Shown here: piece after piece, positions 51,001 through 60,000 of the stretch
How the letters are laid out: each line of letters opens with the position of its first letter
Numbering within the stretch: position 1 is the stretch's first letter
Source of the DNA: an uncultured Clostridia bacterium
GTDB taxonomy: Bacteria > Bacillota > Clostridia > UMGS1883
Direction of reading: 5' to 3'
Assembly (NCBI GenBank): GCA_947629005.1
Contig: CANRCD010000002.1
Coordinates: forward strand, 307,671-371,670
DNA length: 64,000 nt
Program-made: the position numbers

Positions 51001-54000
51001 CCTCCTGAGGATAAACGGCAAATTTTTCGTCAATGGCCCAAGTGCCGCCGTACTGAGCGATATTTTTGCCGCTGAGGGCGCTGTCGTCAAGCTGGATGGG
51101 CTTGCCGCTGTTTGCGCTGATTATCTTTATTTTATTGCCGTATTTCTCAATGCGGAAATGCTGCCCCGCCGCAGCGGTGTAACGATTAAGGGTGAGGGCT
51201 ACGTCGTTGTCCTTGGAATTGCCCGGCACAGTCCATGCGCGGTCGGTGGAAAGGTCAACGATTTTGTAAAGCTTGCTCTCGTCAAGAGAGGAGTTATCGC
51301 TGTCGCTGCCGGCAGAGCGGGCGGCGGCTGTAAGCTCTTCAATGTACTTCTCGCTTTCGGAATAGTCCTTGAAGTATTCCTTGTCTGCCCTGTAAAGCAG
51401 GCCCTCAAAAATTTTAAGGCGGTTGGGGTAAACCTTCCCGAGCTCGGCGAAGGTATCTTTGCCGAGGTTCGTCCAGTAAAGACGGCTGAACTCGGCCAAA
51501 TCTTCGGTTTCATTGCTGGAACCGTAAGAGGAAATGGGCGTGGCGTCAAGGCGCTCGGCCAGCGACCACACGTCAGGGTCGTTCAGCATATTCTGCTCGA
51601 GCACATGGCCCAGCTCATGGGAGAGCGTCTGGGATATCTGCTGGCGGGATGGCTCCCATGTCAGCCTTATCCATATAGAATTGCCGCCGCCGTTATAGCT
51701 GTTGGCCGTGTCGCCCTTCTTCCAGTAGAGGTAGTGAACGTGCTGGCGCAGGGCATAGGGGAACACGCCGATTGCCTCAATGGACTTGGTTATCATCTCG
51801 GCGTTCGGGTCCTCCTCGTTGGTAGCGAACTGGAACTTATGCACCTGACCGGGCACGTCGCCATCCATTTCAACCTGAAAAACCCAAGCCGTGCAAAGGC
51901 TGCCCCGCCATATATCGAAATCCTTGACCTGTTCCTGACTTACTATTTTATATGGAGCTACCTTTTCGTTCACCACATTGCCCACCACCTGGCCGGAGGC
52001 GGTATAGGTAAGGGCGGTTGTAAGCACGCGCTTCTGCATTTCAGCAGAGAGGTTCTCGTAATCCCTTGTAGAGAGCAGCGTTTCGGCGTTGTTATACACA
52101 TCGCGGCTGAGGTCAAGAGCGCTGAAGAAGTAGTTGTCGAAGGCGCGCTTGAGGTCGTCCGATAAGAGCTTATATCCCTCGGAATCCTTTGCTTTCTCCA
52201 TAAGCGAACCGCTGACGGTCTTAAGCGTCCACTTGGCCGCCTCGGAGGACTTTTCGCTTATCTGCACCACCTTGCCGTCCACGTCGGCCAAATACATATC
52301 CGCGTGGCTGGGCTTGATGGTGTAGGCGTCGCCGTCCTTTTCAAAAAGCATCTTCTGCTGGGCGTTGCCGTTGTAGGAATACTGAATAAGCTGCACGCCC
52401 GACTCCTTTTTCGCGTCGGGCACGTCAAGGCTTCTGCCGCTATGCTTGTTCACCGCATAGCACAGGCCGCCGCTGAGCGGAGCCAACCGCCATATCTGTC
52501 CGGCGCTGGGTTTGCCCGAGGACTCGAGCGCAAGCTCCTCAGTGACGATGAGGTCCAAATTGTTCGTGCCGTTGTTTTCTACGGCGATAACGCGGCCGGT
52601 AGACTTGTTCACTATCACGTTGTAAGTGTTTTTGAACGGGTCGGCCGCTTCGACGGCTGTCAGCGCCGCCGCGGGAACCGCGTCCTCGGCGAGGACGGGG
52701 GCCGCCCCGAGCAGCATTGCCGCCGCGATGGCTGCGGATAGCAGCCTCTTAAAAAGCTTTTTTTCCATTTTTACCACTCCTCGTTTTTTCAAGCTACTTA
52801 TATGGTAATTATAGCACCATATCTTGTGCGTGTCAACATTATTTTGTGATATTTATACAAATTTTGTTGTGATTTTTTACAATAAACTTCCGTATATGTG
52901 TTGACATTTTCGTCAATATGATGTATAATTGTAACATAAATGTAAAGGAGGACAAGAAAATGAAAACAAAACGATTGCTGGCGCTCCTCACGGCGGCGGT
53001 CATGGTTCTCGGCGTGCTGCCGGGGATAGGCTTTGCCGAGGATACGCAGGCAAATCCCAACACCGTTGTTATTGAGACGAATAAGACCATCACACAGAAC
53101 ATACACACCGGTGAACTGGATGAAAAAAGGGATAAGAATAATCCCGACCCGGATAATTCCCTCTATATCTACCATTCCAACTGGAATCAGAGGAACGGCT
53201 ATGTCGGCTTTGAACTTGCTGATAAATTTACCGAGGAACAGCTTTCGGACAAATATTATGTAAAAAAAGCTACTCTTAATGTATATGCCTCCTCAATAGA
53301 TACAAAACGCAGCCCCGGCGTAAGCGTTGTCGCCATAGACAATACGCTGTGGAACGAGGAGAAATATACCGCTCCGGAGACGCTTGGGCTGCCGGTTTAT
53401 AACATTACGTCAACCACAACTGCAGTCCCCGAAGATATGGTCGAGATCGACAGGCAGGATATCTCCTCCGTCGGCGACTATAATTTCGATGTAACAAGCT
53501 ATGTGGCCGAAAATCTGGCCGCACTTCAGGAAAAAGGCATTTCCTTCGCGCTTATCAGTATTACGAAGTCCGGCGAAACAACCGGTGACGCAGAGGCTAT
53601 CAAGCTTATTATCGACGGCAAAAACGGCGAAAATAAGCCCACCCTTACCGTGGAGTTTGCCGAAGCGGCCAGCGTTGAGCTGAGCCTTGTGGGCCCCGAT
53701 GACCTTGACCTTGGCAAAAAGACGATAAAGAACCTTGCTTCGGGCAGCGAATACACCCCTACCGATACCGACGCCCCGGTCGTTATCGCGCACGAGGGTA
53801 AGTATTATGTGCGCGGGGAGCTTACGGCAGCTACGCTTGGCCCCGGCGTAAACAATGTTACGGTGGAATATACCGAGGCTGCGATTGAATCCGTTGCCGA
53901 GCCTGAAAATGTGATAACGTCGGTTATCGACGGCAACCGGCCCATTCTGCCCAAGTACCTTTCCGCCACCCTTGAGGGCGAAGTCACTGCGGATGTTCCC

Positions 54001-57000: not shown

Positions 57001-60000
57001 AACGACGCCGAAAGCTACCTTATCAACATCCCCGCCCGCAGCGTTCCCCAGACAAGCATCATCGGCGCGGATAAGGACGAAAACAGGGCTAACGGCCTTT
57101 CCGCCATGGGAGATCCCGAAGTAAGCGTTGAAATACCCTATACGGCCACCTTTGAAGAAGGCGACAGGGTTAAGCTTTTTGCGTGGAACATGGGTATTGA
57201 GCAGATGAAGTCCATTATGCAAATGCCCTTCGAAATTTCCACCGACGGCAACCGCGACCTCATGCGTGAGGACTTCAGCTACGACGGCAGCGATAAGCTC
57301 CGCCTTGACGAAGATACCGACGGCCTGTTCGGCGACTGGGAGGCCAAGGGCTACGACAGCAACGGCAGCGTTGATTTCGCCGATAACAGCTACGCTGCCG
57401 TAACCAAGGCTCCCTTTGGTAACACGGCCCTTCACCTTTACCGCGTGGGCGGGCAGGGGATTATGGCTTCTCACACCATTCCCGATACCGGCGGCAAGGA
57501 CTATACCCTTGAATTCACCATGCGCTACATTGCCGAGATGAGCTGGAGAAACATCAGCAATCAAGGCTTCACGCTCTCCAACGGCATACCCACGAAGAAG
57601 GGCGACACGGAGCATCCCAGCGCCTTCCAGTTCCGTATGACCTTTAACAGCGATGACGAAAACGGACGCGGCACCTATGGCAAGCTTATCAGCAGCACGG
57701 CCTTTGATGAAGTCAACCAGTCAAATGTATTCCACAACGTTGCTCTCGGCCGCGACCTCAGCGATTCCGAAAGGTTTGCCCGCGCGGATTACACCAAGGG
57801 CGTCGGCTATTACGACAATGTTGACGGCATATATATCCACGACTATAACGATTCCCTTTACATCGGCTCCCTGTTCCGCGTAAAGGTTAATGTGCACCCC
57901 GGCGATAAAACCGTTGATATGTCCGTGTTCGACGGTTACCGCACTGCCAGCTGCCGGGCGGATTACAACAACGCCGCGAATGGTAACTGGGACGAAAATC
58001 CCATCAATACCATCACATTCTCTGTCGGCAGCGATACATGGGGCGAGATATATATCGACGACCTCTGTATGCATATCGCCGACGAGAATGACATCAAAAA
58101 GAATGTTACAATTGCTCCCGCAAGCGGCAGCGCTCTTGCGCTCGGCTCTCAGTGGACGATGTACCCCTACGCCGACGGCTCCGTAACGTTCTTCGCGCCT
58201 GACGACAAGGCTATGGACGTCGGCGGCCAGTCTACCAGTGTCGGAGCGACGGTCAGCACCTATGAGTTCAACAACGGAGATAACCAGAAGTTCTATCTTG
58301 TCGGAGTCAAAGACGGATACTTGATTCGCGGCAAGCAGAGCAATCTGTATCTTGCCTCGGATCCAAATAGCGGCGCTCTTACGCTTCAGAAAAAGAGCGA
58401 CGCTACGGTATTCACAATCACTGATTCCGCCGCCGGGCCCTCGGCTGCCGTGCTTGAGATTATCCGCATGATCGAGGACGGAACTTACGAGCCCACGATG
58501 GATGCCCTCTTCCCGGAGGAGGAGGAAATTACCGGCGAGCCTGAGAACGAACCGGCCGACGTAAAGCCCGAAATTGATTTTGTAGAGGAAATCTGACCAT
58601 AATAAAAGGGGCCTCCCCGATGGCATGACATAAGATAGTATAATCAATAATTTTATGACAGGCTGTCACGGGATTATTAAAGAGCGTATCATTTGAAATG
58701 ATACGCTCTTTTGCTGTCTTATAATGGTAAGGCTGCCGCAAAGCGACAAGGGCGAAATGTAAATTCAGCATAAATTTTTTATTGACAAATACGCATAAAA
58801 CATACGTTTATAAAGCCTCAAAAATCCCCCCAAACATTAACATACAATTAACATGGTTGCGCTTTCGGAATTAACATCACCTATGCTAATATTTAATTGT
58901 ATCAAAGATACAATAATTTTTGGAAGGTGATTTGAATGAAAAAATTTATGACCATGTTACTTGCCGTCGGAATATCGGCGGCGGCGCTTGCGGGCTGTGG
59001 AGGAACGGCGGGGACGACGAACGGGGCAACGCAGACGGTATCGACGGACGGTTCAACCTCAATGGAGAAGGTCATCGGGTACTTGAGCGAGGCGTATATG
59101 GCTGAAAACAGCGGCGCGAAAATTACATATAACCCTACAGGCTCGGGCTCGGGCATACAGGCGGTGAGCGAGGGCCGCTGCGACATCGGGCTTTCGAGCC
59201 GCGACTTAAAGCCGGAGGAGGCCGAGACGCTTGACGCGACGGTGATTGCGATTGATGGAATAGCAATGATCGTAAATCCGCAAAATCCCGTGTCGGATTT
59301 AACTATTGAGCAAATCGGCAAGCTGTATACGGGCGAAATCGCGAATTGGAGCGAGGTTGGAGGCGGCGACGCGCCGGTGGTTTTAATCGGACGCGAGGCG
59401 GCTTCGGGCACGCGCGACGGATTTGAGTCTATAACGGGAACTGAGGACGCGTGCAAATACACGCAGGAGCTGACCTCGACGGGCGACGTTGTTCAGACCG
59501 TTTCGACAAACCCAAACGCAATAGGCTACGCGTCGCTCGCGTCGGTCAAGGAAAGCGTAAAACTGCTGTCGGTCGAGGGCATAACGCCGACAACGGAGAC
59601 AATACAGAACGGAACATACAAAATTCAGCGCGATTTCGTATTTGTAACCCCGAAAAATAAGGAGCTGTCCGAAGCGGCGCAGTCGTTTATGGATTACGCG
59701 ACGAGCGAGGCGGCGGACGAAATGATTGAAAAGGCGGGCGCGGTGCCGATAAAGAGATAGGTGATTCAAGTGAAAAATCCGAAAAATACAAGCGACGCGC
59801 TTGAAAAGGCCATGAACGCCGTGTTCGCCCTCTGCGGATTTTTGGCGGTCGCGTTTGTGCTGATGATAACGGCTTTCCTCGTGATAAGCGGCGTTCCGGC
59901 AATAGGCGAAATAGGGATAACGGATTTTCTTTTCGGCAGGGTCTGGGCTTCCACCGCAGCCGAGCCGCAGTACGGCATACTATCGTTCATATTGACCTCC

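What the first reader, a model, noticed from the sequence alone, without database searches (positions are those of the whole stretch)
52901..58596. 1878-aa secreted multi-lectin/beta-propeller giant protein paired head-to-head with the ATLF-like protease gene
This is the largest gene in the window. It combines a signal peptide, an N-terminal beta-sandwich, Ig-like repeats, two LamG/ConA-like jelly rolls, a central ~600-aa region with an Asp-box (SDDKGATW) suggestive of a beta-propeller carbohydrate-active core, a ricin-like lectin and a poly-acidic tail. It has no LPXTG, SLH or choline-binding anchor. The same ricin-type lectin module used by the two ATLF-like proteins appears here, and it lies next to one of them. 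This suggests a functionally linked secreted glycan-targeting set (enzyme + protease), or a protease/substrate pair by analogy to PPEP-1 and its adjacent adhesin substrates. Only one Pro-Pro dipeptide was spotted in the giant protein by eye, which argues against PPEP-1-type Pro-Pro cleavage.
Basis: partly seen in the sequence, partly recalled or inferred. Interest (0 to 1): 0.65.

Follow-up and report, generated by a model that had tools for sequence, protein, structure and literature searches.

The report
Giant secreted lyase-like enzyme with protease partner
The largest gene in the window encodes a secreted, many-domain enzyme whose core looks like a sugar-chain-cutting lyase of the ulvan / gum-arabic type, and in several uncultured herbivore-gut bacteria it sits back-to-back with the same lectin-carrying, anthrax-lethal-factor-like protease, which suggests the two work together, perhaps on plant sugar-coated proteins.

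Summary
The gene is real: ATG 52960 to stop 58596, 1878 aa, with a consensus promoter at 52901. Its 515-aa core (residues 770-1285) matches Pfam BNR_4 and is modelled as a seven-bladed beta-propeller. The best structural matches are PL25 ulvan lyase and PL42 (formerly GH145) L-Rha-alpha-1,4-GlcA lyases. The lyase catalytic residues align and are conserved (His812, Tyr867, Arg890, plus His832). The core is therefore most likely a polysaccharide lyase from a deep, uncharacterised branch, not a sialidase-like hydrolase. Around it sit a CBM96-like module, two Big_4 modules, unassigned beta-sandwiches, one ricin/CBM13 module and a conserved helix plus acidic tail.

The neighbour (50498-52768, minus strand) is confirmed as ATLF/M34-like, with HExxH, Tyr and Glu intact and LF/PPEP as top fold matches. 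The divergent pair recurs in all six other assessable species whose giant carries the ricin module, in at least five different flanking contexts. It is absent from all ricin-less relatives. Both genes have perfect, conserved back-to-back promoters.

A functional link is therefore supported. Whether the two share a substrate or form a protease/substrate pair is untested. The substrate (arabinogalactan-protein or RG-I) is inferred, not shown.

The parts
52901..52929 (+). Promoter of the giant gene: TTGACA-17-TATAAT, 12/12 match
   Evidence: Both hexamers are conserved in 7 species.
52808..52836 (-). Promoter of the neighbouring peptidase gene: TTGACA-17-TG-TATAAT, 12/12 match with an extended -10
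   Evidence: Conserved in 7 species.
52837..52900 (.). 64-bp spacer between the two -35 hexamers. It holds a partly conserved A/T-rich element (ACAAATTTTGTTGTGA...TTTACAA) that could be a shared operator.
   Evidence: Alignment A5. The operator role is inference only.
52960..58596 (+). Coding sequence of the 1878-aa giant protein, stop codon included. RBS AAAGGAGGA at 52944-52952.
   Evidence: Full-length homologues at 47-55% identity.
52960..53040 (+). Signal peptide, residues 1-27 (MKTKRLLALLTAAVMVLGVLPGIGFA|ED)
   Evidence: Read from the sequence. No signal-peptide predictor was run.
53152..53580 (+). CBM96-like beta-sandwich, residues about 65-207
   Evidence: Pfam PF24517: 32.7 bits (cut-off 26) on the isolated segment, 21.4 bits in the whole protein.
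53665..54072 (+). First copy of a duplicated unit: unassigned beta module (236-315) followed by Big_4 (316-371)
   Evidence: Big_4 E 2.5e-4. The internal repeat 236-315 versus 555-640 is 32% identical, E 2e-6.
54127..54624 (+).
   Evidence: Only a weak Sialidase-like_CBM hit, E 0.007. The fold was not tested.
54622..55038 (+). Second copy of the duplicated unit: beta module (555-640) followed by Big_4 (646-693)
   Evidence: Big_4 E 1.2e-8; repeat shown.
55267..56814 (+). Seven-bladed beta-propeller, BNR_4 family, PL25/PL42-like (residues 770-1285). This is the putative catalytic lyase domain and the most conserved part of the protein.
55393..55629 (+). Predicted catalytic residues: His812 (55393-5), His832 (55453-5), Tyr867 (55558-60), Arg890 (55627-9)
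   Evidence: They align to PL25 His123/His143/Tyr188/Arg204 and to FoRham1 His85/His105/Arg166. His812, His832, Tyr867 and Arg890 are invariant in A1. In A2, His812 is invariant and His832, Tyr867 and Arg890 are at least 90% conserved.
56578..56601 (+). Single Asp-box, SDDKGATW (residues 1207-1214)
   Evidence: Regex search.
56815..58074 (+).
   Evidence: No Pfam or PDB match. Conserved only within the giant family.
58057..58395 (+). Ricin-type beta-trefoil (CBM13-like), residues 1700-1812
   Evidence: Pfam RicinB_lectin_2, 27.2 bits whole protein and 38.6 bits isolated. PDB ThreeFoil E 2e-11.
58441..58593 (+). Conserved C-terminal helix motif (AAVLEIIRMIEDGTYEPTMDA) followed by an acidic tail
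   Evidence: The motif is conserved in the window protein and in six of the eight homologues with a readable C-terminus (L001, L008, L009, L010, L024, L025; not L007 or L018). Function unknown.
50498..52768 (-). Partner gene: 756-aa secreted ATLF/M34-like zinc metallopeptidase flanked by ricin-type modules. HELGH at 51605-51619; Tyr415 and Glu422.
   Evidence: Orthologues at 65-78% identity sit upstream of ricin-bearing giants.

Best explanation
The gene encodes a Sec-exported, free (unanchored) multimodular polysaccharide lyase of an uncultured herbivore-gut Oscillospiraceae-type Clostridium.

Proposed mechanism:
1. Accessory modules hold the enzyme on an acidic plant glycan. These are the CBM96-like module, two Big_4 spacer units, unassigned beta-sandwiches and a ricin/CBM13 module.
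2. The seven-bladed BNR_4 propeller cleaves a 4-linked uronic acid bond by beta-elimination.
3. Arg890 neutralises the carboxylate. His812 and Tyr867 act as base and acid. His832 assists. This follows the mechanism of PL25 ulvan lyase and PL42 L-Rha-alpha-1,4-GlcA lyase.
4. The product carries a delta-4,5-unsaturated uronate.

By analogy, the bond cut is probably L-Rha-alpha-1,4-uronic acid. In a terrestrial herbivore gut that means arabinogalactan-protein caps or the RG-I backbone.

The divergently transcribed, ricin-decorated M34-like peptidase is a conserved partner. It most likely acts on the same glycoconjugate.

Status of each step: the fold, the conserved catalytic residues, the synteny and the promoters are shown here. 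Lyase chemistry, substrate, co-expression and the partner's role are inferred.
For: - Pfam BNR_4 scores 76.8 bits, E 2.4e-21. That family contains FoRham1 (PL42) and PL25 lyases.
- The AF2 model of residues 740-1360 has pTM 0.75.
- Foldseek top ten hits are all PL25/PL42, at E 1e-13 to 2e-11. The next hit is at 2e-7.
- A broad family profile reaches 5UAM at E 3.3e-12 and 7ESK at E 4.4e-4.
- That alignment puts His812/His832/Tyr867/Arg890 on PL25 His123/His143/Tyr188/Arg204 and on FoRham1 His85/His105/Arg166.
- These residues are invariant or at least 90% conserved.
- Distant relatives are fused to GH88/GH105-type unsaturated uronyl hydrolase domains (P0096, P0112) or lie near one (L029).
- Closer relatives sit next to a giant GH43 protein, an AraC regulator and a GH4.
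- The founding CBM96 binds a polyuronate.
- Partner link: the orthologous peptidase lies divergently upstream in all 6 assessable loci with a ricin-bearing giant, and in none with a ricin-less giant. Flanking contexts differ.
- The back-to-back promoters are conserved.
Against: - No activity data exist for any member of this branch.
- Identity to solved lyases is only 10-14%.
- A profile of the immediate subfamily (A1) finds no PDB relative at all. hhalign gives only 69% probability to PL25 and 0.5% to PL42.
- PL25 substrate-binding residues Asn122 and Lys125 are Asp and Asn here.
- The model has mean pLDDT 69.8, with low-confidence insertions.
- Some GH145 members of this same fold are hydrolases that use the opposite face of the propeller.
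- The gene is not in a sugar-utilisation locus. Its flanks are trkAH and pstSCAB-phoU.
- Contexts of Bacteroidota relatives are uninformative.
- The synteny could partly reflect shared ancestry of a single clade.
Confidence: 0.68

Rival explanations
1. Protease/substrate pair, as with PPEP-1. The giant enzyme is held at the cell surface or kept in a pro-form through its C-terminal ricin module, helix and acidic tail. The neighbouring M34-like peptidase clips it to release or mature it. This reading is compatible with the core being a lyase.
For: [quoted passage not shown]
- The peptidase gene co-occurs only with giants that carry the ricin-bearing C-terminal extension. A conserved helix motif follows the ricin module in most of these.
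- Both proteins carry ricin modules, which could bring them together on one glycan.
Against: - The giant has a single Pro-Pro (residue 1099). It lies in an invariant stretch inside the propeller, not in a linker.
- No cell-wall anchor is present from which the protein would need releasing.
- Related peptidases occur without any giant nearby: the window paralogue at 33906-36488 and L033.
- The peptidase's specificity is unknown.
Confidence: 0.15
2. The propeller is a glycoside hydrolase rather than a lyase. It would be either a GH145-type rhamnosidase using the posterior face, or a sialidase-like exo-hydrolase.
For: - BT3686 and other former GH145 members share this fold and hydrolyse Rha-GlcA at a posterior His.
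- Those structures are among the top fold matches.
- An Asp-box is present.
- The broad profile gives weak hits to sialidases, E about 1e-3.
Against: - The anterior lyase residues (His/His/Tyr/Arg) are the ones that are invariant.
- According to the FoRham1 paper, the posterior hydrolase site is a recent Bacteroides innovation and is not conserved.
- Sialidase structures match far less well, Foldseek E about 1e-6.
- There is only one Asp-box.
- Fusions to GH88/GH105-type domains fit lyase products.
Confidence: 0.1
3. The protein is a non-catalytic adhesin or lectin. The propeller and the other modules only bind glycans, tethering cells or other enzymes to plant particles.
For: - Seven-bladed propeller lectins (PLL, PHL, BP39L) appear among the lower fold matches.
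- The architecture, with Ig-like spacers and lectin modules, resembles fibrillar adhesins.
Against: - No cell-wall anchor.
- The propeller is the most conserved part of the protein and the catalytic residues are invariant across a family of more than 1000 clusters.
Confidence: 0.05

Closest known systems
PL25 ulvan lyase PLSV_3936 (PDB 5UAM/5UAS)
   Same: - Same Pfam family, BNR_4.
- Catalytic His123/Tyr188/Arg204 and His143 align to conserved His812/Tyr867/Arg890/His832.
   Different: - About 13% identity.
- The propeller is about 515 aa against about 440, with insertions.
- Substrate-binding Asn122 and Lys125 are replaced.
- The Zn site was not verified.
- PL25 enzymes are small, single-domain and marine. 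This protein is a 1878-aa multimodular protein from a land-herbivore gut anaerobe, where ulvan is not expected.
PL42 (formerly GH145): FoRham1 L-Rha-alpha-1,4-GlcA lyase (7ESK) and Bacteroides BT3686-type proteins (5MUL, 5MUM)
   Same: - His85/His105/Arg166 align to His812/His832/Arg890.
- The substrate, arabinogalactan-protein caps, is plausible in a herbivore gut.
   Different: - Weaker sequence link: E 4.4e-4 with the broad profile only, and hhalign probability 0.5% with the subfamily profile.
- PL42 enzymes are exo-acting, single-domain proteins of about 400 aa.
ATLF/M34 peptidases: anthrax lethal factor and Pro-Pro endopeptidases PPEP-1/2/3 (for the partner gene)
   Same: - HExxH helix, oxyanion Tyr, and Zn-binding Glu seven residues after the Tyr.
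- Secreted.
- PPEP-1 and PPEP-2 genes lie next to their substrate genes.
   Different: - No hit to the Pfam ATLF model.
- The catalytic domain is about 300 aa with a long helical N-terminal part, and it is flanked by ricin modules.
- The adjacent giant lacks Pro-Pro linker motifs.
- PPEP specificity elements (S-loop, diverting loop) were not assessed.
Multimodular extracellular CAZymes of gut Firmicutes (for example the giant GH43 protein next to a relative in L005)
   Same: Signal peptide, Big_4/Ig-like spacers, several CBM-like modules and one catalytic core. The genes are scattered rather than grouped in PULs.
   Different: The catalytic core is a BNR_4 propeller from an uncharacterised branch. 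The gene is locked to a lectin-bearing peptidase gene.

Membership tests
Pfam BNR_4 (PF15892) | Score above the curated gathering threshold (27.3 bits) | tested here: met
   76.8 bits, E 2.4e-21, residues 775-1024.
CAZy PL25 (ulvan lyase) | Seven-bladed beta-propeller fold | tested here: met
   [not shown]
CAZy PL25 (ulvan lyase) | Catalytic His123, Tyr188 and Arg204 | tested here: met
   They align to His812/Tyr867/Arg890, which are invariant in the subfamily.
CAZy PL25 (ulvan lyase) | Significant sequence similarity to family members (CAZy/dbCAN assignment) | tested here: inconclusive
   The subfamily profile A1 finds no PDB hit. The broad profile A2 reaches 5UAM at E 3.3e-12. hhalign gives 69% probability. 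dbCAN was not available.
CAZy PL25 (ulvan lyase) | Structural Zn site (His208, His264, Cys266, His278) and substrate-binding Asn122/Lys125/Tyr246 | tested here: inconclusive
   Asn122 and Lys125 align to Asp811 and Asn814, which differ. The Zn ligands were not mapped.
CAZy PL25 (ulvan lyase) | Ulvan lyase activity | not testable with these tools
   This needs an enzyme assay.
CAZy PL42 (L-Rha-alpha-1,4-GlcA lyase, formerly GH145) | Fold, plus anterior His85/His105/Arg166 | tested here: met
   [not shown]
CAZy PL42 (L-Rha-alpha-1,4-GlcA lyase, formerly GH145) | Significant sequence similarity to family members | tested here: not met
   Only E 4.4e-4 with the broad profile. hhalign probability with the subfamily profile is 0.5%.
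GH33 sialidase | Six-bladed propeller with several Asp-boxes and best fold matches to sialidases | tested here: not met
   There is one Asp-box. Sialidases match at Foldseek E about 1e-6, against 1e-13 for the lyases.
CBM96 | Score above the Pfam PF24517 threshold (26 bits) | tested here: inconclusive
   32.7 bits for the isolated segment, but 21.4 bits in the whole protein. Binding was not tested.
CBM13 / ricin B lectin | Beta-trefoil domain match | tested here: met
   RicinB_lectin_2 scores 27.2 bits (cut-off 25.6) and 38.6 bits when isolated. ThreeFoil E 2e-11.
   No Pfam or PDB-profile match for residues 390-555 or 1440-1705. The fold was not modelled.
M34 / ATLF-like peptidase (partner gene) | HExxH, downstream Tyr and Zn-binding Glu, and an LF/PPEP-like fold | tested here: met
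   [not shown]
M34 / ATLF-like peptidase (partner gene) | Match to the Pfam ATLF model | tested here: not met
   The central domain gets no Pfam hit even at E 10.
PPEP-type protease / adjacent-substrate system | The adjacent gene product carries Pro-Pro cleavage motifs in a linker next to an anchor | tested here: not met
   There is one PP, at residue 1099, inside the invariant propeller. No LPXTG.

The most novel reading that the evidence does not exclude
The conserved divergent pair is a dedicated module for taking apart plant proteoglycans. Ricin/CBM13 modules would guide both enzymes to the same arabinogalactan-protein (or other hydroxyproline-rich glycoprotein). The BNR_4 lyase would strip or cut Rha-uronate-bearing glycan. 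The M34/ATLF-like peptidase would cut the Pro/Hyp-rich, O-glycosylated backbone. That would make the partner the first lectin-guided, glycoprotein-directed member of the lethal-factor/PPEP peptidase family used for nutrition in a gut commensal. It would also make the lyase the founder of a new PL (sub)family.
Probability: 0.15. Interest if true: 0.75.

Novelty: new variant of a known kind. Interest (0 to 1): 0.45.

Why it matters
Lyases of the BNR_4 propeller type are known mainly from marine ulvan degraders, one fungus and Bacteroides. This case shows a deep, uncharacterised branch. It comprises about 1490 clusters at 50% identity, including abundant gut Bacteroidaceae proteins. In uncultured herbivore-hindgut Clostridia it has been built into proteins of 1600-1900 aa.

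If the branch is active it probably defines a new PL (sub)family. It could also provide tools for analysing acidic plant glycans such as gum arabic/AGP and RG-I.

The strict pairing with a lectin-bearing lethal-factor-like peptidase gives a concrete, testable entry point. It bears on how gut Firmicutes deal with the protein part of plant proteoglycans. It also bears on what non-toxin ATLF/PPEP-like peptidases do.

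Tried and rejected
- Direct phmmer of the whole protein against the PDB found only ricin-type hits.
- A PDB search with the close-subfamily profile A1 found nothing, even at E 10. 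Only the broader profile A2 bridged to PL25 and PL42.
- NCBIfam gave nothing for the giant.
- Pfam gave nothing for the peptidase's central domain.
- Segment scans and a full-length family profile gave no support for LamG modules.
- The afdb50 fold library was unavailable.
- The word-indexed homologue search for the peptidase returned only 2 proteins.
- The exact peptidase sequence is not on record.
- The first metagenome scan found nothing. The second found one distant stand-alone homologue.
- Contexts of Bacteroidaceae and Muribaculum relatives were uninformative about substrate: peptidases and a sulfatase.
- One literature query (ATLF-like / ricin) was unproductive.
- No paper on this branch was found.
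- The 1122-aa antisense ORF (54247-57615) was considered as a possible overlapping gene and rejected. The sense gene has 0 TTA, 0 CTA and only 4 TCA codons, and those TCA codons sit exactly at the antisense ORF boundaries.
- The 1091-aa ricin / F5_F8_type_C protein near the giant in L001 was checked as a possible second ATLF-like partner. It is not one.

Full report
**The observation**

An ORF runs in one frame from 52918 to 58596. The biologically likely start is ATG 52960. It lies 7 bases after AAAGGAGGA and gives MKTKRLLALLTAAVMVLGVLPGIGFA|ED..., exactly 1878 aa. This is the largest gene in the window.

Pfam finds BNR_4 (775-1024, E 2.4e-21), two Big_4 modules, a ricin-type trefoil (1700-1812) and a CBM96-like N-terminal module. 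The CBM96 score is 32.7 bits for the isolated segment and 21.4 bits in the whole protein.

A script confirmed one Asp-box (SDDKGATW, 1207), one Pro-Pro (1099), no LPXTG, and the acidic tail. The two 'LamG/ConA-like' modules (390-555 and 1440-1705) have no Pfam or PDB-profile support and remain unassigned. The stretch 236-315 plus Big_4 is duplicated at 555-693.

The long antisense ORFs inside the gene are a codon-usage artefact. The gene has no TTA or CTA codons, and its four TCA codons fall at the antisense ORF boundaries.

**What the core is**

According to the literature, BNR_4 contains FoRham1, the founding L-Rha-alpha-1,4-GlcA lyase of PL42 (formerly GH145). It also contains PL25 ulvan lyases.

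An AlphaFold2 model of residues 740-1360 gave mean pLDDT 69.8 and pTM 0.75 (27-sequence alignment). The structural matches were:
- Foldseek: the ten best hits are all PL25 or PL42/GH145, at E 1e-13 to 2e-11. The next hit is at 2e-7.

At the sequence level the link is remote:
- The whole protein and a profile of its immediate subfamily find no solved relative.
- A broader profile of 34 diverse family members reaches 5UAM at E 3.3e-12 and 7ESK at E 4.4e-4.
- hhalign of the subfamily profile gives 69% probability against a 5UAM fragment and 0.5% against a 7ESK fragment.

The alignments map the catalytic residues as follows:

| Giant protein | PL25 (PLSV_3936) | PL42 (FoRham1) |
|---|---|---|
| His812 | His123 | His85 |
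| His832 | His143 | His105 |
| Tyr867 | Tyr188 | not mapped |
| Arg890 | Arg204 | Arg166 |

All four residues are invariant in the 27-sequence alignment. In the 34-sequence alignment His812 is invariant and His832, Tyr867 and Arg890 are at least 90% conserved. All four are invariant in the nine full-length giants.

The propeller is also by far the most conserved part of the protein. I therefore read the core as a polysaccharide lyase of the PL25/PL42 structural clan, on a deep and uncharacterised branch.

The branch is large. There are 1490 clusters at 50% identity with E up to 1e-3, including many 609-aa Bacteroidaceae proteins.

Supporting context:
- Some relatives are fused to GH88/GH105-type unsaturated uronyl hydrolase domains, which is what one expects downstream of a lyase (P0096, P0112).
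- A Paenibacillus relative lies in a sugar-uptake locus with a GH88-type gene.
- A close giant relative sits beside a protein of more than 2700 aa with GH43 domains, an AraC regulator and a GH4.

**Substrate (inference)**

All characterised members of this fold clan cut L-Rha-alpha-1,4-uronic acid bonds: ulvan, or the Rha-GlcA caps of gum arabic.

All 22 related loci found in species-representative genomes come from uncultured Clostridia or Oscillospiraceae MAGs. Those whose record names a host are from rabbit, goat, buffalo or roe-deer hindgut. The plausible targets there are arabinogalactan-protein caps or the RG-I backbone (Rha-alpha-1,4-GalA). Nothing here tests this.

**The neighbour**

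The gene at 50498-52768 (minus strand) encodes a 756-aa protein. It has a signal peptide, ricin modules on both sides and a central domain of about 300 aa with HELGH. Pfam does not recognise the central domain.

H384-E385-xx-H388, Y415 and E422 are invariant between orthologues and a 25%-identical paralogue in the window at 33906-36488. The Tyr-to-Glu spacing of 7 equals that of PPEP-3 (Y190/E197).

From memory, and not tested here, the motif SYGxxNxxEDxxEFxRLY resembles 'SYGRTNEAEFFAEAFRLM' of lethal factor.

**The link between the two genes**

The orthologous peptidase gene (65-78% identity) lies immediately upstream and divergent in every assessable locus whose giant carries the C-terminal ricin module. 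These loci are L015/L001, L023, L008, L010, L025 and L018/L006. L007 and L009 have too little flank to judge.

It is absent from all loci with ricin-less giants. Most of those occur as tandem giant pairs in a syntenic context next to an addA/uvrD-type helicase; the L005/L011 type instead lies after a giant GH43 protein and an AraC regulator.

The pair sits in at least five different flanking contexts:
- trkAH / pst in the window
- adhE-type / arsC
- dnaK-dnaJ-like ORFs (judged from their N-terminal sequences) / ROK
- mazEF / zinc-ribbon
- an mnmA-like ORF (judged from its N-terminal sequence) / a thymidylate-kinase-like ORF (likewise)

The intergenic region holds two perfect, back-to-back sigma-70-type promoters. 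Their hexamers are conserved in all seven species, and there is a partly conserved A/T-rich element between them.

This supports a functional unit. It does not prove co-expression, and part of the pattern may reflect the common ancestry of one clade. The peptidase family also exists without a giant next to it: the window paralogue and L033.

The ricin modules of the two proteins are only 23-27% identical. 'Same module' therefore means same family, not recent sharing.

**How the pair might work**

The reading I favour is two secreted, lectin-guided enzymes acting on one glycoconjugate, with the lyase on the glycan and the peptidase on a protein part.

The PPEP-1-type reading, in which the peptidase cleaves the adjacent giant, remains possible. 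In its favour, the peptidase gene co-occurs only with giants that carry the ricin-bearing C-terminal extension. In most of these a conserved helix motif and an acidic tail follow the ricin module.

Against a PPEP-like mechanism, the single Pro-Pro is inside the invariant propeller and there is no anchor.

**Verdict**

The giant protein is a new, multimodular variant of a known kind of enzyme, the BNR_4 / PL25-PL42-type propeller lyase. It has a conserved partner that has not been described before.

Interest is moderate. The fold and the likely chemistry are known. The branch, the architecture, the host niche and the locked peptidase partner are new and directly testable.

Noticed in passing
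window 52808-52929: Two perfect (12/12) sigma-70-type promoters lie back-to-back in the 191-bp intergenic region. Their -35 hexamers are 64 bp apart. The hexamers are conserved in all seven species, and an A/T-rich element between them is partly conserved and could be a shared operator.
   Followed up: partly
window 58441-58593; also the C-termini of the giants in L001, L008, L009, L010, L024 and L025: After the ricin module there is a conserved amphipathic helix motif, [ST]AAVLEI[IV]EMIEDGTYxxTMDA, followed by an acidic tail. It is present in most ricin-bearing homologues and absent from ricin-less ones. Its function is unknown; it could be a docking, sorting or processing signal.
   Followed up: partly
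window 33906-36488 (+): A second ATLF/M34-like protein of 860 aa, 25% identical to the neighbour. It has HELGH and the SGYG...EDFGEFSRLY motif, ricin modules and an N-terminal Cu_amine_oxidN1-type domain. It stands alone between a CoA-enzyme activase gene and a sipL-like gene.
   Followed up: partly
window 54247-57615 (-), 57721-58647 (-), 53410-53793 (-): Very long antisense ORFs (up to 1122 aa) lie inside the giant gene. They are explained by codon usage: the sense gene has 0 TTA, 0 CTA and only 4 TCA codons, and those TCA codons mark the antisense ORF ends. They are not genes.
   Followed up: yes
L013, L016, L017, L019, L020, L021, L022, L004: Ricin-less relatives of the giant occur as tandem pairs (about 1780 aa followed by about 1620 aa). 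The context is conserved, next to an addA/uvrD-type helicase and recR/dnaX. This suggests an old tandem duplication in that clade.
   Followed up: partly
window 53665-54072 and 54622-55038: There is an internal duplication within the giant. An unassigned module of about 80 aa followed by a Big_4 module occurs twice (32% identity, E 2e-6), on either side of the first unassigned beta-rich module.
   Followed up: partly
window 23916-26204 (+): A 762-aa GH51-type alpha-L-arabinofuranosidase (ASD1_dom plus Alpha-L-AF_C, with a weak CBM_4_9) sits among housekeeping and sporulation genes (secDF, spoIVB, yceG). In this organism plant-glycan enzymes are scattered rather than clustered.
   Followed up: no
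P0132; window 56675-58596: A 640-aa fragment whose match to the giant (its residues 1-122) is 100% identical and which also matches the giant's C-terminal segments is present in the public protein library. The neighbour's exact sequence is not on record, and the best full-length relative of the giant is only 55% identical. The source organism therefore seems to be represented publicly only by fragmented assemblies.
   Followed up: no
window 45377-47103 (+): Wzz-type chain-length determinant and ParA/AAA_31-type (tyrosine-kinase-like) genes lie upstream of trkAH, next to a DUF1015 gene. This is a remnant or part of a capsule/EPS locus, unrelated to the finding.
   Followed up: no
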